Part shown: one piece after another, positions 11,313-29,237 of the stretch
Layout: each line of letters opens with the position of its first letter
Position numbering within the stretch: position 1 is the first letter of the stretch
Virus record (IMG/VR): IMGVR_UViG_3300045988_109438
Source of the DNA: a virus
Reading direction: 5' to 3' (one strand)
Length of the DNA stretch: 64,000 nt
Notes under the pieces: generated by a model
Told to the model about the DNA's origin: nothing
The model's database searches: none
The model's input: the letters and a program-made list of their open reading frames with translations, nothing else
Program-made: the position numbers and the translations under genes

Positions 11313-11465
11313 CACATAACTTTTTTTTGACATGAATATAGCACACGAATCTAAATCGAATAAAACCCCATTGTATTTAATAGGAGAAGGTGATTATATA
11401 CAACTTTACACCACAAATATATCAAATTGTTTTTATATATAAATAATAATTCTTACATTTGTGTC

Positions 11466-12689
11466 ATGAGATTAATTGAACAACATACGATCAAGCCAAG
11501 TTCTGTTTATTATAATGAACTTTATGACCTATTGCATAAGTGTAAAAACTTATACAATAAAGGATTGTATGTTGTTAGGCAACACTATTTTCAATACAAG
11601 GATGACAATACCGTAAAATACAAATATCTTAACTACTATTCTCTTGAAAAGAAACTAAGAGCAGAAAATGATGTTGACTATCGTGCTTTACCAACACCAG
11701 TTGCTCAACAAGTGTTGATGATGGTTGATAGAAACTTTAAATCTTTCTTCAATCTTCTAAATAAAAGGAATAGAGGTGAGTATTCCGAATTTGTTAGAAT
11801 ACCTAAGTATCTTAACAAAGATGGTTTGTTTCCTGCTGTTTTTACAACAAATGCTTTTTCTCAAAAATGGATAAAGCAAGGCGTTGTTAAGTTACCAAAA
11901 CAATTTTCCTTTACAACAAGGACTAACAAACAAAATATCCAACAACTTAGATTCATTCCTAAGAATGGGTATATTGTTCTTGAAATAGTTTACAACAAGA
12001 AGGAAAAAGATCTTATGTTAGATAATGGAAATTATCTTGGTATCGACATAGGATTGGATAATTTAGCATCTTGTGTTTCAAACACCGGTTCTTGTTTTAT
12101 TATCAATGGTAGACCACTGAAGTCTATCAACCAGTATTATAACAAAAGGTTAGCATTCTTAAAATCTAAGTTAAAAGATAATAAACATACTTCAAAACAA
12201 ATAAGGTCATTAACAAACAAAAGGAATAACAAGATCAAAGACTATCTTCATAAGGCAAGTAGGATATTGGTTAATCACGTAGTTTTCAATGGTATTAATA
12301 CGATCATAATCGGTCATAACAAATGCTGGAAACAAGAGATCAATATCGGAAAACGAAATAATCAGAACTTTGTATCTATTCCTTTTAATGTATTTATCTC
12401 AATGATATCTTATAAAGCAACATTAGAAGGTATTAATGTTAAGATTGTTGAAGAATCTTATACTTCAAAATGTAGCTTTTTGGATAATGAACGGATTTGT
12501 AAACATGAATCTTACAAAGGAAGAAGGATCAAACGAGGATTGTTTAAAACCTCGTTTGGTAAGATCATCAATGCTGATATCAATGGTGCATTTAACATCA
12601 TTAGAAAATCAGAAAAAGAATCCTTTGATGTAACGATGTTACTAAAAGGTAGAGGGTTTTGGTGGAACCCGGTACGGATTTCCGTATAA
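11466..12689 (+). mobile_element. tnpB: TnpB-like RNA-guided nuclease (IS200/IS605 OrfB family), stand-alone, copy A
   Basis: RuvC-I IDIGLDNLAS, RuvC-II EESYTSK, RuvC-III NADINGAFNI; no TnpA nearby; zinc-finger reduced to C-x7-C. Confidence 0.8.
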
Positions 12690-12886
12690 ATATGTATTAC
12701 TTTACGCTTTTGGTGTAAAGTAATACATAATCACCTAGGAGAGTTGATTGGCGTACCGAATACGGTTATGGACTCAGCATTGCATGAACTGAAAGATAGA
12801 ATAGACAAAGACCCTAAATATAAAGATGTTAAAAATTGGCTCGAATCTTTACCCAAGATCTGAACCTATTTTTTTTCAATACCGGG

Positions 12887-12920
12887 CCCGATGCGATTTT
12901 AACGTATCGGGTTTTTATTT
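12887..12920 (+). terminator. rho-independent terminator downstream of tnpB A (may coincide with IS right end / omega-RNA 3' region)
   Basis: Stem CCCGATGCG/CGTATCGGG followed by TTTTTATTTT. Confidence 0.55.
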
Positions 12921-12991: not shown

Positions 12992-13219
12992 ATGGAAAAT
13001 AAGGAAGATTACGTTGGTTACGAAGATCAAGAACTGTGTAACCGGTATTACAAAGAGGCTGAAGCCATGAGGCAAAAGCAGGACTGGTCTCGGCTTAGGG
13101 CTGTCCCTGCTCCGGCCAAGGGAACGCCATCGCCCGGCTGGGGTCAGCTTGGACGTGGAAATGATGTCCGTGTTAAGTACGTTAGCATCAATTCAGGATT
13201 AGGAGGGGACAGATTATGA
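12992..13219 (+). CDS. hypothetical small protein
   Basis: ORF; ATGA overlap with next ORF. Confidence 0.35.
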   Translation: MENKEDYVGYEDQELCNRYYKEAEAMRQKQDWSRLRAVPAPAKGTPSPGWGQLGRGNDVRVKYVSINSGLGGDRL

Positions 13220-13431
13220 CTGTAGAAGAATTGGCTAATAAAAGATACAGTGGCGAATTTGTTTTCATGCTTGGTCATTTGGAAGGTATAACAAGATTCG
13301 TTTTTGAATGTTTTGATCCCAGACCTGATCACGAAGGTAAAAATACTTATATGGTTTCCTATTTTGATAAGGGACTTCGTAGAAGAGATGTGGTAGATGT
13401 GCCATGTTATATGAATGTTTTAGCAAAATAA
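13216..13431 (+). CDS. hypothetical small protein
   Basis: ORF translationally coupled to previous. Confidence 0.35.
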   Translation: MTVEELANKRYSGEFVFMLGHLEGITRFVFECFDPRPDHEGKNTYMVSYFDKGLRRRDVVDVPCYMNVLAK

Positions 13432-13451
13432 ATTAAAATATTGTAAATATC

Positions 13452-14087
13452 GTGGTTAGAATCGCATATTTCGGAACCGATGGCTGCCCCGGTCATCACG
13501 TTATTCCAATACGAGGTAAATTCACAGAAGAGGATATTAAGGTAATAGAATCTGTAGATTGTGATGATTTCTATAAGGTGTTTGACGTTATGCGTTTTAA
13601 GATAGCTGAGTTTAAAGGATGGACGATATTGGGAATCCCGGCAAGCTTAGACGATCATAGACTTGGAAGCAAAACCGTTATCTTCATAGAAGGTAAAGCT
13701 AACGAAGCTGATTTTATAGAAGTCACACAAGAGTATTCTTTTCTTAAAAATAAGGTAAAGAAACTTGCCGAATTGTATCATGATGGAGAATGGCTTGCGA
13801 CTGGTAAATTGAATCAAGATCCGCCTACTAACAAGGAGCGGTTTCAATTCACGTTAGACAAGGATGATATTATTAACATGATTAGGGGAGTCGATTTAGA
13901 TCCTTATTCTGATGTGGCGAATGAAATGGAGAAAATCGGATTGGGATCATCATCTGATTCTTCATATGAGGGTCCCATATGGTCTTGGTTTGTTAACAAA
14001 GTAGAACTTTGGCAGAAGAATAATGTATGGGATAGTTTCTCCGCTGAGTTTTTGTGGGGTTTGTATTGTAGGATAAAGAAAGTATAG
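13452..14087 (+). CDS. hypothetical protein
   Basis: ORF in accessory operon. Confidence 0.5.
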   Translation: MVRIAYFGTDGCPGHHVIPIRGKFTEEDIKVIESVDCDDFYKVFDVMRFKIAEFKGWTILGIPASLDDHRLGSKTVIFIEGKANEADFIEVTQEYSFLKNKVKKLAELYHDGEWLATGKLNQDPPTNKERFQFTLDKDDIINMIRGVDLDPYSDVANEMEKIGLGSSSDSSYEGPIWSWFVNKVELWQKNNVWDSFSAEFLWGLYCRIKKV

Positions 14088-14195
14088 TAACAATTAATTT
14101 AAAACAAATCATGGAATTAAAAGATTTTAAAGATGTGGTTAGAGTAATGACAAAAGAAGAGTTCGAATCAGCAATCAACGAAGATATTAAATTCG

Positions 14196-14975
14196 TTGAA
14201 AGATTTAAGCATTTTTTTTAAACATGATGATGCTACGAGGATAATAGAACACGTAAAGTCAGTGTTAGAAGCATCAGTAGATTACTTCTATCCTAATCAT
14301 CCTGAAGTAGAATTTGAAAAAGATTTTAATATACAATACGATGTCAATAATATCTTGAACAAATACGGCCACACCGAAATGGGTCTGTATAAAATACAGC
14401 TCTATGTAGAGAAGATTTTGGGTAGTATTCAAAACAAGAAGCCTGTAGACGTGGGAGAAGTCTCTGACGGATACCACACTTTCAATGAATTGTATCGGTA
14501 TAGCATGTTGTATAACGCTGCCTTCTTTAATCTATTAGCCAGAAGCGGACAGGTTGAAGTTTGCAAATCAAGGAGACACAGCGACGGAGAAAAATGCTTC
14601 GGTTCTGATGATTGGTTTATTGTGATGGCGATCCTGCCTACCGGTCAGGTATCTAATCACTATGAAAGCAAATACTGGGATTTGTTTGATGTTCCTGAAA
14701 GAGAAACCGCTTTCGAATACGATGGCCATACACCAAATGAAGCTGCCGACAGACTTAAAAAGTATCTCAAACTGCCTCGTCGTGGCATGACATTCGAACA
14801 GGCTTTAGAACGGCTTAAATTAGGTCGTAAGATAAAAAGAATCGATTGGGGTAAAAAGTATATCTGTATGTTTGACGTAAATATATTGATGGTAGATACA
14901 GGTCAAAAAGTAGCATCAAATTGGAATCCAACCGAACATGATATTATGTCTAATGACTGGGAGATTGCGGGATGA
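14196..14975 (+). CDS. two-domain protein with C-terminal DUF2829 (Tad2-like, Thoeris anti-defense family) domain
   Basis: C-terminus MTFEQALERLKLGRKIKRIDWGKKYICMFD...NWNPTEHDIMSNDWEI fits DUF2829 pattern (M-F-x-A-L-x-x-L-K-x-G-x-K-v-x-R-x-x-W ... W-x-P-x-x-x-D-x-x-x-x-D-W-E-I); N-terminal ~190 aa domain unassigned; possible N-terminal extension from ATG 14111 via T8 run. Confidence 0.6.
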   Translation: MKDLSIFFKHDDATRIIEHVKSVLEASVDYFYPNHPEVEFEKDFNIQYDVNNILNKYGHTEMGLYKIQLYVEKILGSIQNKKPVDVGEVSDGYHTFNELYRYSMLYNAAFFNLLARSGQVEVCKSRRHSDGEKCFGSDDWFIVMAILPTGQVSNHYESKYWDLFDVPERETAFEYDGHTPNEAADRLKKYLKLPRRGMTFEQALERLKLGRKIKRIDWGKKYICMFDVNILMVDTGQKVASNWNPTEHDIMSNDWEIAG

Positions 14976-15247
14976 GTTTGTTTGTATGTTCAAAATGTGG
15001 CTGTATAGATAATACAGCCACATCATATTACTGGGCTCTTATAAGACCTTGTAAGAATCGTATTTACGATAAGTCGCTAAAGGGATATGAAGGCAAGCCT
15101 CTTTGTTCTGAATGTGCCGCTATTGAATATAGTAAGGGAGGCGAAGTGGTGGTAGTTCCTGGAACGTGGCACGGTAAGTTCAAGAAAGAATGGCCTACTG
15201 AAGAAGAAAAGAAACATATTGGTAAAAACGGAATATTAAATTTATAG
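14972..15247 (+). CDS. zinc-ribbon protein (CxxC...CxxC)
   Basis: CSKCGC...CSEC pairs; ATGA overlap with upstream gene. Confidence 0.5.
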   Translation: MSLFVCSKCGCIDNTATSYYWALIRPCKNRIYDKSLKGYEGKPLCSECAAIEYSKGGEVVVVPGTWHGKFKKEWPTEEEKKHIGKNGILNL

Positions 15248-15249
15248 TC

Positions 15250-15555
15250 ATGTGCAATAAAGAAATCGTGATATGCGCTGCCATCTGGGTGCAGGACGGC
15301 AAGAAGCGTCCCTATCAGCCCACCAATATACCATCCGGAACCGTGTTCTGTGGATTGAGACACCCCTCTATACTATCTCAACTTGCGGCATACGGTATAG
15401 CCCATAAAAACCGCAGTGTTCAAGGATTTTTGACAAGCAAGAATCGGTTTTTAACAAGAGAGGAAGCGTCTGAACTTGTTAGAAACAATAATCAGGAGAT
15501 GGTGGTAGATAGGAATGCCATTAGAGAACAGTTGTATTCAGAAGATTTGTATTAA
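15250..15555 (+). CDS. hypothetical protein
   Basis: ORF. Confidence 0.45.
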   Translation: MCNKEIVICAAIWVQDGKKRPYQPTNIPSGTVFCGLRHPSILSQLAAYGIAHKNRSVQGFLTSKNRFLTREEASELVRNNNQEMVVDRNAIREQLYSEDLY

Positions 15556-15572
15556 CTAAAAAATAAAACAAT

Positions 15573-15923
15573 ATGGGATTTATAATCAGAAAGTCAATCA
15601 TTTATAATATGATGGACGGCAATCAATTAAATTATGAATTTGACAACAGGGATTTAGATCATATCACATTTAAAGGTGATGGTAAAGAACCTTTTTCATT
15701 TAACAGAGTCCTTGTTGAAAATTTAATTGAGACATTTGAGACTATGCAAGATATATACTCTGATAATTACGGAATTAAGGTTTATACCGGTAATTGCATA
15801 ATTCAACTGAATGTAAATCCAAAGAACTTAAGTGAATCCTTTTTTGACGTATATGATAGAGATGGGATGAAATTGATATATAGCATACAAAATAGTATCT
15901 TGAAAGAAATGTTTGTCATATGA
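15573..15923 (+). CDS. hypothetical protein
   Basis: ORF. Confidence 0.45.
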   Translation: MGFIIRKSIIYNMMDGNQLNYEFDNRDLDHITFKGDGKEPFSFNRVLVENLIETFETMQDIYSDNYGIKVYTGNCIIQLNVNPKNLSESFFDVYDRDGMKLIYSIQNSILKEMFVI

Positions 15924-16237
15924 TTACTAAACAAGATATACAAGCAGCAGCATCGTATATTTTCCGAAGCAGTTTTGTCTCGGAGGACCAGGCAAGGAAA
16001 GCAATGGTAAAAGCCGGCAATAACGCTACCAAGATCCTCGTCAAGACCTTTAGAGGCAAGTTGTTCAAGAAAGCTTTTGAAAGAGCCCGTAGAGGAAAGG
16101 ATATCAGTTCTTTTGAAAGACAGGAAAAAGAAAGTGGTTTCAATTTTCTACATAATCCTAATAATGGTCGTATGCAAAGCGGTCATATTATAATAGATGG
16201 AATTGGTCTGTTTAAACAAATAATTCATGAAAGGTAA
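15920..16237 (+). CDS. hypothetical basic protein
   Basis: ORF overlapping previous stop. Confidence 0.45.
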   Translation: MITKQDIQAAASYIFRSSFVSEDQARKAMVKAGNNATKILVKTFRGKLFKKAFERARRGKDISSFERQEKESGFNFLHNPNNGRMQSGHIIIDGIGLFKQIIHER

Positions 16238-16400
16238 AAAAGTTGATATTCGTTTAGGCAGAGGTCTGGCGAATCAGATTAAGATAAACAAAACCATTCC
16301 AGTGTCTCATAAACCAAAAGAAGAACGTCGAATGATGTTTATTTGTGGTGATGATATTGCTTCTCTTATAAAGCGGTTTGAAAACGAATCAAAGTAATAT

Positions 16401-16434
16401 AAAGTCGGACATGTGTCTTGTCCGACTTTTTTTA
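16401..16434 (+). terminator. rho-independent terminator closing the accessory operon (AAGTCGGAC/GTCCGACTT + T7)
   Basis: Perfect 9-bp stem, 9-nt loop, TTTTTTT. Confidence 0.7.
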
Positions 16435-16770: not shown

Positions 16771-16913
16771 GCTGAACTTGACGATTTTTCGTCAGATTAT
16801 AATTTTTTTTTCATATTATTTTTAAGCCATCAGACTGAGAAGTTAGGTGGCTTTATTTTTTATGATATGCTTTATTTTTAACTACCTTTGTCTCATAACA
16901 AAAATGTTTTATC

Positions 16914-23550: not shown

Positions 23551-23949
23551 ATGAGACGAAGATTTCAAATAGGGATGGGGGTAAATCCCTCGCTTATAAT
23601 CAATAAAGGCATATACATCCAACATGTAGATGGAGGATTATATACAAAAGAAAATTGGTCTAATAAAGGATATTCCAATGATCTATGCAATGGAATAGCT
23701 CTTGTAGATAAAGTGTGTTTTGTTATAGCCACCGAATATATTGGCACATTTAGTTGGGGTAAGGATGGAGAAATAGACAATATATTTGCACAAGATAGTT
23801 CTCATATGGGAACTATTAAAAAGGATTATTGGGGGCGTGAAAATCAGAATGCGTATCTTGAATATGATACCAGTAATACAGATTACGCTTTTAATAAAGC
23901 TAATAGCTATGGTAATTATATACAAGTTTACACCTGTAATATTAGTTAA
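23551..23949 (+). CDS. hypothetical protein (convergent with tnpB B, 8-nt overlap)
   Basis: ORF with ATG at 23551 (MRRRFQIG...). Confidence 0.4.
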   Translation: MRRRFQIGMGVNPSLIINKGIYIQHVDGGLYTKENWSNKGYSNDLCNGIALVDKVCFVIATEYIGTFSWGKDGEIDNIFAQDSSHMGTIKKDYWGRENQNAYLEYDTSNTDYAFNKANSYGNYIQVYTCNIS

Positions 23950-25153
23950 TAAATTTCTTAACCGGGTTATACCCAAACCCTGTATAGGGTGGCATTACTG
24001 CATCCCCTTTTACTTTTCTCATAATATTATAACTTCCGTTGACATCAGCGTTTAACAACACACCGTCTTTTGTCCTAAAGATTCCTCTTTTCAACCTTTT
24101 ACCAACGTAAGTATTATGATGACATACTTTCTCCAAATCATAAGAACTGCATTTTGACGTATGAGACTCATTTACTACAAAGAATCTTAGTCCTTGTCTT
24201 TCTGATTTGTACTTTAACATTGATATAAAATCACCAAATGGGATAAAAACAAAATTCTGGTTGCTTCTCTTACCTATATTAACTTCCTGTTTCCATCCGT
24301 CATTATGACCTACTATCAATGTAGTTATATTATCTTCAACACAAATATCTATGATTTTTTTACTTGCTTTATGAAGATAATCCCTTACCTTGCTATTTCT
24401 TTTTCTTGTTAAAGACGCTAACCGTCTCGAATTTTTCTTGCCATTTACTTTCTCCAATTTACTTTGTAAAAACGAACGTTTCTTATTATAATATTGATTG
24501 ATGGATTTCAATTTTCTTCCATCTATCAATACCGGTTTGTTACTAACGTTAGTAACAACAGAAGCAAGGTTATTAACACCTAAGTCTATAGACATTATCC
24601 TATTGTTGTCAACTTTCTGTTCTTTACAACAAGATTCGTAAACTAATTCAATAACATAACATCCTTGTCTTGGTATTATCCTAACTTGTTTAACACTACC
24701 TTCTTCACACTTTGTTTTTAAGGGAGGTAGTCCTTCTTTCTTAGGGAAATAAATATATTCACCTCTATGCCGTATTTGGGCATAAGAATAGTTAAAAACA
24801 TTCCTGCCCTTTACCTTGTCCTTGTACTTAGGGAACTTAGGACATCCTGTGAATTTCTTGTTATCCCTTTTCCAAGCCTTAATAGAAGAGAAATAAGATT
24901 TTAGATTCTTATCTAATCCCATCAATATCTGTTGTGAAGAAGATCCACTTAATGCCCTGAAATCAGGATTGTTTTCAGATACCATTTTCTTGTTAAGATC
25001 CGTACATCTAATCCACTTTCCTGTATTAAGGAACTCTTGTTTGATAACATAAAGTCCAGCATTATACAGGTTCTTTGACAAGAAACAGATACGATCTAAC
25101 ATCTTATATCTCCTATCACCTTGGGTAATTATATGTTGTTCTACCAAATACAT
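23942..25153 (-). mobile_element. tnpB: TnpB-like nuclease (IS605 OrfB family), copy B
   Basis: SIDLGVNNLAS, NESHTSK, NADVNGSYNI; shares LKSINQYYNK block with copy A. Confidence 0.8.
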
Positions 25154-27980: not shown

Positions 27981-29237
27981 TTATAAGTTTCCGGATATAT
28001 TCATTTTGTAAAATACATTCGTAATCCTTACCGGGTTAAACAATAACCCTCTATCGATTATCCTACGAATTGATTCACAGGAATCACCGACTACTTTTCT
28101 CATAATGTTTAATGCTCCATTTATGTCTGCATTTATGAGTTTTCCTACCGAGGATTGAAACAATCCTCGGTTCTTCCTCTTTCCTAAATAGTTTTCATGT
28201 TTTCCTATCTTCTCAAATGCTAATGAATCACATTTTGAAGTATATGACTCTTCATGAATAACTATTTCAATACCAGCTAATTCACATTTATATTCTAAGT
28301 AACTCACCAATCTCGCAAAAGGGATTTGTGTGAATTTCTGGTTATTCCTTTTTCCCATATTCACATTCTGTTTCCATCCCTTGTTATAGCCTACAACTAA
28401 TTTTGTTATCTTAGAATCGACAAGCAAATCAACTATCTTTCTACTGATTTTATGAAAGACATCTTCTATGTACTGTTCCCTATCATAATATAATTTCTTT
28501 ATTCGCTTTGTTATTCCTTTTATCTTTTGTAAATCCTTGATACTATTTAATTTAGCAAGTGTTTTATTAAATAATTGATTGTATGATTTAACAAATTTAC
28601 CACTAAACAAAACAGTAAAATCCTCACTTACTAATGTTGCAAGATTATCAATCCCTAAATCGATTGAAGCAACTTTCTCTTCCCTACATTTAGATACTCC
28701 AGTATCTTTTACCTCATAAATGATTTCTATTTTATATCCACACGCTAATGGTTTTATTCTAATCTGTTTGAAATCTTTTATCAAATCAGAATACTTTTCA
28801 TATTGAGGAATACTTATTGAAATATCTTTTGATAGGATTATTTTTCCATCTTTTATTTTGCAACTCTGATTCGTGTAATACAAATTAAATTCAGATCCTC
28901 TTTTTCTATAACTTGGAAGGCCTGGTTTTTCCCTATACTTATTATAATTTTTCTTGTAATCTTGGACCGATTTGTAGTAACCTTTAATGTTTTTATCAAG
29001 AATACGAAGAATTTGTTGTGAACATTGCGCCTTTAATAATTTGTAATTAATATCTCCATCCAAATTCTTGGTATTTTTCATGATAGCATCAAGTTCAAAA
29101 TAGGACAACCACTTATCTTCTTTAGAAAGTGTTTCTCTGAAAATATACAATGCCTGATTGTACAAGTTGTTGCTAATCTTGCATAAAGATGATATATTTT
29201 CATTTTGTCCTATGTTAAACTTATATACTAATCTCAT
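27981..29237 (-). mobile_element. tnpB: TnpB-like nuclease, copy C (most divergent; zinc-finger cysteines largely lost)
   Basis: SIDLGIDNLAT, EESYTSK, NADINGALNI; only one Cys where CxxC...CxxC expected; embedded between early genes with ~40 nt spacers. Confidence 0.75.

What the first reader, a model, noticed from the sequence alone, without database searches (positions are those of the whole stretch)
14111..14975. Tad2-like (DUF2829) domain fused to an unassigned ~190-aa N-terminal domain inside a terminator-bounded accessory island
The C-terminal 65 aa (MTFEQALERLKLGRKIKRIDWGKK...NWNPTEHDIMSNDWEI) match the DUF2829 family. That family includes the Thoeris anti-defense protein Tad2, which sponges gcADPR signalling molecules. 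Tad2 proteins are normally ~90-100 aa and single-domain. Here the domain is C-terminal to a larger unknown domain (SDGYHTFNELYRYSMLYNAAFFNLL...). The gene lies in a compact operon (13452..16237) between tnpB A and a strong terminator, together with zinc-ribbon and unknown small ORFs. That arrangement is typical of anti-defense/moron islands, so the neighbours may also be anti-defense factors.
Basis: partly seen in the sequence, partly recalled or inferred. Interest (0 to 1): 0.7.

Follow-up and report, generated by a model that had tools for sequence, protein, structure and literature searches.

The report
Frameshifted WDGH–Tad2-like phage accessory gene
A gut-phage gene joins a stripped-down copy of a known "immune-signal sponge" domain (Tad2) to WDGH, a very conserved phage domain whose fold and function are unknown; in this genome a one-base slip in a run of T's splits the gene.

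Summary
The Tad2-like/DUF2829 call is right: Pfam PF11195 scores 43 bits against a cut-off of 25, and the model matches solved Tad2 structures. Two parts of the observation are wrong.

- **Not one ORF.** 14111-14975 is split by a T8 tract at 14212-14219. It leaves a 36-codon ORF and a 259-codon ORF. Relatives with T7 encode an intact 287-aa protein.
- **The N-terminal part is assigned.** Residues 115-217 are a Pfam WDGH domain (PF25311, E 4e-35).

The Tad2-like domain is the most reduced among 38 fusion relatives. It lacks the β2-β5 insertion. It keeps W25, W73 and D79 of the gcADPR pocket, but N26 is Gly.

Some relatives are WDGH–Sequestin(PF21825)–Tad2 triple fusions. This ties WDGH to two validated Thoeris sponge families. 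Fusion to a known sponge is how Sequestin itself was found.

The likeliest function is counter-defence by capture of nucleotide immune signals. This is untested. WDGH is a candidate second anti-signalling module. Disrupted T-tract alleles make up about 18% of related contigs.

The parts
14111..14221 (+). 5' fragment of the gene: ATG plus 36 codons (MELKDFKDVVRVMTKEEFESAINEDIKFVERFKHFF), ending at a TAA created by the extra T
   Evidence: The same 36 residues form the N-terminus of the intact 287-aa protein P0001.
14212..14219 (+). T8 homopolymer tract, the site of the +1-base frameshift (T7 in intact alleles)
   Evidence: Alleles in 80 IMG/VR contigs: T7 and interrupted tracts are intact; T8, T6 and T8A2 (TAA) are disrupted.
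14196..14975 (+). Mechanical 259-aa ORF (TTG start). From 14220 (KHDD...) it encodes the rest of the protein in the +1 frame.
   Evidence: The exact product is seen on 87 contigs.
14220..14453 (+). Remainder of the N-terminal predicted helical region, with no family. 14307-14436 is a lineage-specific ~130-nt insertion absent from csAssE-Sib and the L014 lineage.
14454..14762 (+). WDGH domain (PF25311). The WDGH motif reads YDGH in this protein.
   Evidence: E 4.2e-35, 120 bits against a cut-off of 27; model pLDDT 96.2; no PDB fold match.
14787..14972 (+). Minimal Tad2-like (DUF2829, PF11195) domain of 62 aa, lacking the β2-β5 insertion
12992..16397 (+). Co-directional, tightly packed accessory gene array: 75, 71, 211, (36+259), 91, 101, 116, 105 and 56 aa
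   Evidence: Gene content varies between related contigs: the 211-aa slot is replaced or absent in L001, L014 and L019.
15250..15555 (+). Neighbour ORF of the T4_Y16D family (PF26092), function unknown
   Evidence: phrog_839
12884..12914 (+). Terminator-like hairpin upstream of the array, downstream of the tnpB insertion
16401..16429 (.). Strong bidirectional terminator-like hairpin with a T tail, closing the array

Best explanation
The locus is a frameshift-interrupted allele of a three-part phage accessory gene. The parts are an N-terminal helical region (about 112 aa, no family), a WDGH domain (about 103 aa) and a minimal Tad2-like domain (62 aa).

Shown:
- the domain assignments;
- the Tad2 fold of the C-terminal domain;
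- the retention of the W/W/D core of the Tad2 gcADPR pocket;
- the autonomy and very strong conservation of WDGH;
- relatives in which WDGH is fused to both Sequestin and Tad2.

Inferred:
- The full-length (T7) protein oligomerises, and paired Tad2-like domains form interface pockets. These pockets sequester an ADP-ribose-derived or cyclic-nucleotide immune signal (Thoeris/CBASS/Pycsar type), blunting abortive-infection defences.
- The loss of N26 and of the insertion argues for an altered ligand range or a dimer-only assembly.
- WDGH is most likely a second nucleotide-directed module, either a sponge or a small His-dependent hydrolase. Its dense set of invariant polar residues (D119, H122, K152, S153, H156, Q179, N182, H183, Y184, H206 and others) would form the site.

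In this window the T8 allele yields full-length protein only through rare RNA-polymerase or ribosome slippage at UUU-UAA-A, if at all. Here the gene is probably off or strongly down-regulated.
For: Tad2-like domain:
- Pfam hits for both domains.
- Foldseek to Tad2 structures at probability 1.0.
- The published SPO1 Tad2 contact residues W25, W73 and D79 (preprint 10.1101/2023.05.01.538930) map to W, W and D in the window protein. They are kept in 38/38, 37/38 and 38/38 WDGH-Tad2 fusions.
- The pocket-forming elements (β1-β2 loop, β4, α3) all lie in the retained segments.

Link to sponges:
- Relatives P0112, P0117 and P0120 are WDGH(67-167)-PF21825(177-238)-Tad2(250-345).
- PF21825 is Sequestin, an experimentally shown 3'cADPR sponge. 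It was discovered precisely because it is fused to Tad2/Acb4 (PMC12265669).

WDGH as an autonomous module:
- It exists as stand-alone proteins of 107-150 aa in phages.
- It shares 59-77% identity with the window's domain across proteins whose other parts differ.
- It has about 20 invariant, mostly polar or aromatic residues.

Context and selection:
- The gene sits in a variable accessory array.
- The downstream ORF stays full length with the Tad2 motif in 25 of 26 tract-disrupted alleles from several backgrounds.
Against: - No functional data exist for any WDGH protein or any WDGH-Tad2 fusion. Multi-domain Tad2 proteins that also carry PF21825 or a PDB 6E3C-like domain were removed from the large functional survey (PMC12393519).
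- N26, which contacts the phosphates, is Gly here and is kept in only 19/38 fusions. T78 is His.
- The α2-containing insertion that makes the V-shaped dimer of the Tad2 tetramer is deleted.
- The gene lies in the structural (late-orientation) block, next to a 2140-aa virion protein. P22-like phages carry WDGH between the coat and adaptor genes. This is not the usual early position of sponges.
- In an unbiased sample only 4 of 147 WDGH representatives carry Tad2-like. Most partners are linker-rich modular gut-phage proteins, so fusion may partly reflect module shuffling.
- The window allele is frameshifted, with no stimulatory RNA structure (z = -0.29).
Confidence: 0.45

Rival explanations
1. 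Null allele or dispensable gene. In this genome the T8 frameshift simply inactivates an accessory gene. The tract is an ordinary mutational hot spot, and the disrupted alleles are neutral or conditionally favoured losses. Whatever the family does, this copy does nothing.
For: - TAA falls in frame after codon 36.
- There is no in-frame ATG near the junction.
- There is no significant RNA structure.
- Three other T>=7 tracts nearby, all intergenic, are equally length-polymorphic in the same 80 contigs, so tract variation is general.
- Disrupted alleles (T8, T6, T8A2 nonsense) are 14 of about 77 contigs.
- Many assemblies show deletions and chimeras in this region.
Against: - The exact T8 product is the most frequent single sequence sampled in its cluster (87 contigs).
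- Disruption recurs in at least 4 sequence backgrounds.
- Despite that, the downstream 209-254 codons stay open with an intact Tad2 motif in 25 of 26 cases.
- UUU-UAA-A allows perfect +1 re-pairing of tRNA-Phe, and T8 can support transcriptional slippage (established knowledge). Some full-length product is therefore possible.
Confidence: 0.35
2. WDGH is the business end and has a non-immune role, such as host takeover or a nucleic-acid or protein target. The Tad2-like domain is only a small-molecule-sensing or oligomerisation appendage that regulates it.
For: - WDGH is far more conserved and more widespread than the fusion.
- It occurs alone.
- Occasional partners are DNA-binding domains: Bro-N, sigma-70 region 4, Myb, FaeA, YccV.
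- It sits in the late operon in P22-like phages.
Against: - Each DNA-binding partner is seen only once.
- No nuclease or other enzyme fold is recognised.
- The triple fusion with two validated sponges is better explained by a shared target class.
Confidence: 0.2
3. Module shuffling without functional coupling. In gut phages, small domains are recombined through conserved linkers. The WDGH-Tad2 juxtaposition would then be one inherited accident, uninformative about WDGH.
For: - 123 of 239 flanking segments of WDGH representatives belong to one linker/repeat-rich cluster ('WLEKQGEQKP', 'WSEEDE') with very varied modules.
- WDGH identity within the fusions is 65-95%, compatible with a single ancestral fusion.
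Against: - The fusion persists with three different Tad2 insertion types, at least three different N-terminal domains, and with or without Sequestin. The order WDGH then Tad2 is always kept.
Confidence: 0.15
4. Anti-CRISPR of the AcrIIA7 type. AcrIIA7 is a DUF2829 protein first reported as a Cas9 inhibitor.
For: Weak sequence matches to AcrIIA7/HgmTad2 chains (E 0.08-0.46).
Against: The AcrIIA7 protein was later shown to be a gcADPR/cyclic-dinucleotide sponge (HgmTad2; PMC10680739). Binding to Cas9 was never shown.
Confidence: 0.04

Closest known systems
Tad2 (SPO1 gp34.65; Pfam PF11195/DUF2829), a phage sponge for 1''-3' gcADPR and, in homologues, His-ADPR, N7-cADPR, cyclic dinucleotides and cUMP/cCMP
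   Same: HMM membership, α1 plus antiparallel-sheet fold, C-terminal DW motif, and conserved W25/W73/D79 pocket residues.
   Different: - 62 aa instead of about 90.
- The whole β2-β5 insertion (α2, the V-dimer interface) is missing.
- N26 is Gly and T78 is His.
- It is not a stand-alone protein but the C-terminus of a 287-aa three-part protein.
- Oligomeric state and ligand are unknown.
Sponge-sponge fusions (Acb4-Tad2 of Pasteurella phage Pm86; Tad2-Sequestin and Acb4-Sequestin; PMC12265669)
   Same: A Tad2 domain is fused in one polypeptide to another small phage module. Relatives of this gene carry WDGH-Sequestin-Tad2.
   Different: The partner here, WDGH, has never been tested. The window protein itself has no Sequestin domain.
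WDGH domain family (Pfam PF25311), e.g. phage L Orf186, BTP1 gp06, Deep Blue gp106, Listeria LP-125 gp039
   Same: A clear member (120 bits). All invariant residues of the family are present.
   Different: The name-giving Trp is Tyr (YDGH). Most members are stand-alone or sit in other modular proteins, and only about 3% of representatives carry Tad2-like.
Acb5, a small phage enzyme that cleaves 3'3'-cGAMP using conserved W/R/H residues (PMC12265669)
   Same: It is a precedent for a very small phage protein with conserved His that degrades rather than sequesters a signal. WDGH has four invariant His residues.
   Different: No sequence or fold relationship was found. The taxonomic distribution differs: Acb5 is mostly in Streptomyces and Mycobacterium phages, whereas WDGH is mostly in Listeria, Bacillus and Salmonella phages.

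Membership tests
Tad2 / PF11195 (DUF2829) | Profile-HMM match above the curated gathering score | tested here: met
   43.3 bits against a cut-off of 25, E 5.5e-11, profile positions 1-72 of 73 covered by only 60 residues.
Tad2 / PF11195 (DUF2829) | Tad2 fold (N-terminal helix, antiparallel β-sheet, short C-terminal helix) | tested here: met
   Foldseek of model m0157440985d6 against 8smf, 8wje, 8v3e and 9eib: probability 1.0, target TM 0.6-0.74, local pLDDT 85-93.
Tad2 / PF11195 (DUF2829) | gcADPR-contact residues W25, W73 and D79 (SPO1 numbering) | tested here: met
   They map to W, W and D in the window protein. They are conserved in 38/38, 37/38 and 38/38 fusion relatives.
Tad2 / PF11195 (DUF2829) | N26 (phosphate contact) and T78 (adenine contact) | tested here: not met
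   N26 is Gly and T78 is His in the window protein. N is kept in 19/38 relatives.
Tad2 / PF11195 (DUF2829) | β2-β5 insertion with helix α2 forming the V-shaped dimer of the homotetramer | tested here: not met
   SPO1 residues about 35-59 have no counterpart. The W25 to I63 spacing is 15 aa, against 38 in SPO1 and 50 in long forms. This is the shortest of 38 relatives.
Tad2 / PF11195 (DUF2829) | Homotetramer with two interface pockets; binding of gcADPR; inhibition of Thoeris | not testable with these tools
   No multimer or ligand modelling and no experiment were available.
WDGH / PF25311 | Profile-HMM match above the gathering score, with the family's invariant residues | tested here: met
   120.4 bits against a cut-off of 27. 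D119, G120, H122, E126, K152, S153, H156, Q179, N182, H183, Y184 and H206 are present. The motif reads YDGH.
Sequestin / PF21825 | Profile-HMM match | tested here: not met
   Absent from the window protein. Present between WDGH and Tad2 in relatives P0112, P0117 and P0120.
Known anti-phage defence proteins (PADLOC-DB) | Any profile match for the gene, for stand-alone WDGH proteins or for the neighbours | tested here: not met
   No hits at E <= 0.01.
Programmed ribosomal frameshift site | Slippery sequence plus a stimulatory element, with the shifted arrangement conserved as the only allele | tested here: inconclusive
   UUU-UAA-A permits +1 re-pairing (sequence). There is no significant RNA structure (z -0.29). 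Intact T7 and tract-free alleles are the majority.

The most novel reading that the evidence does not exclude
WDGH is a previously unrecognised family, with a new fold, of phage proteins that sequester or cleave nucleotide immune signals. It is present in model-type phages: P22-like Salmonella phages, A511/P100-like Listeria phages and Bastille-like Bacillus phages. The WDGH-(Sequestin)-Tad2 proteins would then be multi-signal 'polyvalent sponges'. Their expression in gut phage populations would be toggled by a hypermutable T tract.
Probability: 0.22. Interest if true: 0.8.

Novelty: new variant of a known kind. Interest (0 to 1): 0.5.

Why it matters
Sponges that soak up immune signals are a central phage counter-defence. 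Sequestin was found through fusion to known sponges. WDGH is fused to both Tad2 and Sequestin, yet it has no literature, no recognisable fold and thousands of members, some in cultivable phages where it can be tested directly.

If WDGH binds or cleaves a signal, it adds a new family. It would also explain accessory genes in P22-like, Listeria and Bacillus phages.

The minimal Tad2 domain also tests how much of Tad2 is needed for pocket formation.

If none of this holds, the locus is just one more frameshifted accessory gene of unknown function.

Tried and rejected
- **Literature.** Searches for 'WDGH', 'PF25311' and 'csAssE-Sib' gave no relevant paper. The EVADES supplements contain neither term. 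The supplements of PMC12265669 are not held.
- **Neighbourhoods of stand-alone WDGH genes.** I checked Listeria LP-125, Bacillus Deep Blue, Bacillus phage Nate, BTP1 and two metagenomic contigs. No known anti-defence neighbour turned up. One adjacent NADAR gene was seen in phage Nate.
- **Other N-terminal domains of relatives.** The 'MKKYIGTKQ...' and 'MKYIKKP...' types looked Acb4-like from memory. They have no Pfam or PDB hit, so I dropped that idea.
- **T4_Y16D neighbour.** It has a homologue in Pasteurella phage Pm86, the phage with the tested Acb4-Tad2 fusion. That homologue is not next to any Tad2-like gene there.
- **Host inference from the recently inserted TnpB.** The best genomic relatives are only 40-51% identical and taxonomically scattered. 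One MAG label 'Clostridium sp.' is too weak to use.
- **Programmed frameshifting.** There is no stimulatory structure, and other nearby T tracts vary just as much.
- **NCBIfam and PADLOC** gave nothing for the gene or its neighbours.
- **IMG/VR scan for diverse WDGH loci.** It returned only close relatives (92-100% identity). These were useful for allele counts but not for a co-localisation test.

Full report
**What is at the coordinates**

The window is part of a gut phage of about 150 kb. It is 94% identical over this region to phage csAssE-Sib (OR575929.1). Replication genes lie on the minus strand. Large virion proteins lie on the plus strand.

The interval 14111-14975 is 865 nt and is not one ORF. 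An ATG at 14111 opens 36 codons (MELKDF...ERFKHFF). They end at a TAA produced by a run of eight T's at 14212-14219. The remainder is read in the +1 frame, as the mechanical ORF 14196-14975 of 259 aa. csAssE-Sib has seven T's and an intact CDS annotated 'DUF2829'. An intact 287-aa protein that differs from the window's repaired protein at one residue (R to S) is the representative of a 2,378-member database cluster (P0001).

**Domain anatomy**

Pfam finds two domains in the 259-aa ORF:
- WDGH (PF25311) at residues 87-189, E 4.2e-35.
- Tad2-like (PF11195) at residues 198-257, E 5.5e-11.

So the 'unassigned' N-terminal part contains a catalogued domain of unknown function. Only the first ~112 residues of the full protein have no family. 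They are predicted helical, and part of them is a lineage-specific insertion of about 40 aa.

A full-length AlphaFold model has mean pLDDT 72.6, with 85-93 in the C-terminal domain. Its C-terminal domain matches solved Tad2 structures (SPO1 8smf/8wje, Myroides 8v3e/9eib) at Foldseek probability 1.0 and target TM about 0.7.

**How Tad2-like is the Tad2-like domain?**

Published SPO1 Tad2 contacts to 1''-3' gcADPR are W25, N26, W73 and D79, plus T78, I63 and T65 and water-coordinating D67, H71 and S76. The pocket is built from the β1-β2 loop, β4 and α3 of two non-dimeric protomers of a tetramer. The V-shaped dimers of that tetramer pack through helix α2 (preprint 10.1101/2023.05.01.538930).

By the HMMER alignment, the window protein compares as follows:

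| SPO1 Tad2 residue | Window protein |
|---|---|
| W25 | W (kept) |
| W73 | W (kept) |
| D79 | D (kept) |
| N26 | G |
| T78 | H |
| D67 | Q |
| H71 | S |

The window protein also lacks the entire β2-β5 insertion (SPO1 residues about 35-59), which includes α2.

Across 38 WDGH-Tad2 fusions, W25, W73 and D79 are kept in 38, 37 and 38 sequences, and N26 in only 19. The window protein has the shortest W25-to-I63 spacing: 15 aa, against 38 in SPO1 and 50 in long-insertion relatives. That insertion is the cyclic-dinucleotide-binding part of HgmTad2 (PMC10680739).

The core pocket signature is therefore preserved under selection. Tetramer architecture and ligand specificity cannot be assumed.

**WDGH**

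A phmmer scan of 1.84 billion cluster representatives found 3,677 WDGH proteins at E <= 1e-3. The best 150 share 59-98% identity with the window's domain, while their lengths run from 140 to 638 aa.

Of 147 representatives, only 4 carry Tad2-like and 1 carries PF21825. Single examples carry GNAT, sigma-70 region 4, Myb, FaeA or YccV.

Many members are stand-alone proteins of 114-150 aa. tblastn finds WDGH in 198 cultured phage records: Listeria 54, Bacillus 45, Salmonella 34, then Streptococcus, Lactococcus, Klebsiella and others. Examples:
- a 107-aa protein in Bacillus phage Deep Blue and a 115-aa protein in Listeria phage LP-125;
- the 186-aa gp06 between the coat and adaptor genes of P22-like BTP1.

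Invariant residues are mostly polar or aromatic: D119, G120, H122, E126, Y128, Y134, N140, K152, S153, H156, Q179, N182, H183, Y184 and H206. They lie in loops next to the β-sheet. This is the pattern of a ligand-binding or catalytic site.

A domain-only model is very confident (pLDDT 96.2, pTM 0.86), yet no match was found:
- The profile finds no PDB sequence.
- BFVD returns only other uncharacterised 'WDGH domain-containing' phage proteins.
- No paper mentions WDGH or PF25311.

**The link to immune-signal sponges**

Relatives P0112, P0117 and P0120 have the architecture WDGH(67-167)-PF21825(177-238)-Tad2(250-345). PF21825 is 'Sequestin', shown experimentally to sequester 3'cADPR and to block type I Thoeris. 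It was discovered because it is the family most often fused to Tad2 and Acb4. Fused sponges such as Acb4-Tad2 of phage Pm86 block two systems at once (PMC12265669).

The large functional survey of Tad2 diversity removed Tad2 proteins that also carry PF21825 or a PDB 6E3C-like domain, and proteins over 500 aa (PMC12393519). I found no report that tests a WDGH fusion.

By the same guilt-by-fusion logic, WDGH is a candidate signal-directed module. Acb5 in the same preprint shows that a very small His-dependent phage protein can cleave rather than bind a signal.

This step is inference. Several points count against it:
- Only about 3% of WDGH representatives are fused to Tad2.
- Most partners are linker-rich modular gut-phage proteins ('WLEKQGEQKP', 'WSEEDE'), so shuffling is frequent.
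- The neighbourhoods of stand-alone WDGH genes were uninformative.
- The gene sits in late-orientation blocks, both here and in P22-like phages.

**The T tract**

The exact 259-aa frameshifted product is on 87 contigs from NCBI, ENA and Logan. That makes it the most frequent single sequence among the 40 cluster members read. T8 was verified in six independent samples. Frameshifted ORFs starting MK[DE]LSIFFKHDD occur in at least four sequence backgrounds (P0386, P0045, P0420, P0424).

In 80 IMG/VR contigs of this phage group the alleles are:

| Allele | Contigs | State |
|---|---|---|
| T7 | about 33 | intact |
| Tract interrupted (AATTTCTT and similar) | about 29 | intact |
| T8 preceded by a CAT-to-CTT change | 1 | intact |
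| T8 | 8 | frameshift |
| T6 | 3 | frameshift |
| T8A2 | 3 | in-frame TAA |
| Not resolved | 3 | not scored |

Across these contigs plus the loci fetched earlier, the downstream ORF stays full length with the Tad2 motif in 25 of 26 tract-disrupted alleles.

Three other T>=7 tracts nearby, all intergenic, are equally length-variable. No stimulatory RNA structure follows the site (z = -0.29).

My reading is an ordinary hypermutable tract inside a dispensable or conditionally useful accessory gene, giving on/off variants in the population. Low-level rescue is mechanistically possible, by +1 slippage at UUU-UAA-A or by RNA-polymerase slippage. It is not shown.

**Surroundings**

The gene lies in a packed co-directional array (12992-16397) between terminator-like hairpins at 12884-12914 and 16401-16429. 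Array content varies between related contigs. The 211-aa slot upstream is absent or replaced in csAssE-Sib and other lineages. Assemblies contain many deletion chimeras.

Only one neighbour has a family: the 101-aa ORF belongs to T4_Y16D (PF26092, function unknown). No neighbour hits PADLOC, NCBIfam or an informative PHROG.

The tnpB element (11396-12735) is an insertion absent from all five relatives compared.

**Verdict**

The Tad2-like domain is real. The single ORF and the 'unassigned domain' are not.
- The anti-Thoeris interpretation is plausible but unproven for this reduced domain.
- The main remaining interest is WDGH. It is a large, strongly conserved, phage-borne family with no recognisable fold and no literature. 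It is physically fused to two validated sponge families.
- I rate this a new variant of a known kind, of moderate interest, with a testable higher-novelty reading.

Noticed in passing
window 14212-14219; L027-L106: The T tract inside the gene is length-polymorphic in the phage population. About 18% of 80 IMG/VR contigs carry T6, T8 or a T8A2 nonsense allele, in at least 4 sequence backgrounds. The downstream ORF stays intact. This is on/off variation of an accessory gene at a hypermutable site.
   Followed up: yes
window 12869-12876, 16427-16433, 16803-16811: Three intergenic T>=7 tracts are also length-variable among the same 80 contigs (lengths 6-10). Homopolymer instability, or assembly noise at such tracts, is therefore general in this phage group.
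   Followed up: partly
window 11396-12735: A 1.34-kb TnpB-only element (tnpB ORF 11427-12689) is an insertion absent from all compared relatives (L001, L002, L004, L014, L019). The subject coordinates flanking the insertion overlap by 14 bases in every relative compared. Two more tnpB genes lie at 23942-25153(-) and 27981-29237(-). The closest genomic TnpB relatives are only 40-51% identical.
   Followed up: partly
window 15250-15555: This 101-aa ORF belongs to the T4_Y16D family (PF26092). Homologues occur in Sphingomonas phage PAU, Tenacibaculum pT24, T4-like Acinetobacter phages and Pasteurella phage Pm86. Function is unknown. In Pm86 it is not adjacent to a Tad2-like gene.
   Followed up: partly
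window 13452-14087: This 211-aa ORF with no family occupies a hypervariable slot directly upstream. It is absent from csAssE-Sib. It is replaced by a 67-aa ORF in the L014 lineage, and by 67-aa and 165-aa ORFs in the L019 lineage. Several assemblies contain in-frame chimeras of it with the WDGH gene (P0002, P0107).
   Followed up: partly
window 14307-14436: A ~130-nt insertion lies in the N-terminal region of the gene. It encodes ...FNIQYDVNNILNKYGHTEMGLYKIQLYVEKILGSIQNKKPVD. It is present in some lineages and replaced by a 9-residue EPEAEPGDM-type linker in others.
   Followed up: no
P0130, P0133, P0161, P0164, P0205, P0232 (WDGH representatives): Most close WDGH representatives from gut metagenomes are 'beads-on-a-string' proteins of 400-640 aa. 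WDGH and other small modules are joined in them by conserved linkers (WLEKQGEQKP, WSEEDE). This looks like a module-shuffling system.
   Followed up: partly
L012 3848-5048 (Bacillus phage vB_BanS_Nate gp134-gp135): A stand-alone WDGH gene overlaps the start of a NADAR-family (ADP-ribose-related) gene. This is a single case and was not checked in other phages.
   Followed up: no
L013 3821-4381 (Salmonella phage BTP1 gp06; also epsilon34, ST104, phage L Orf186): In P22-like phages the WDGH protein (186 aa) sits between the coat and head-tail adaptor genes, which is a late-operon moron position.
   Followed up: partly
window 14972-15247: This 91-aa ORF overlaps the stop codon of the WDGH-Tad2 gene (ATGA). 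It has CxxC...CxxC cysteines, consistent with a zinc ribbon. It hits only phrog_11861 (unknown function).
   Followed up: no
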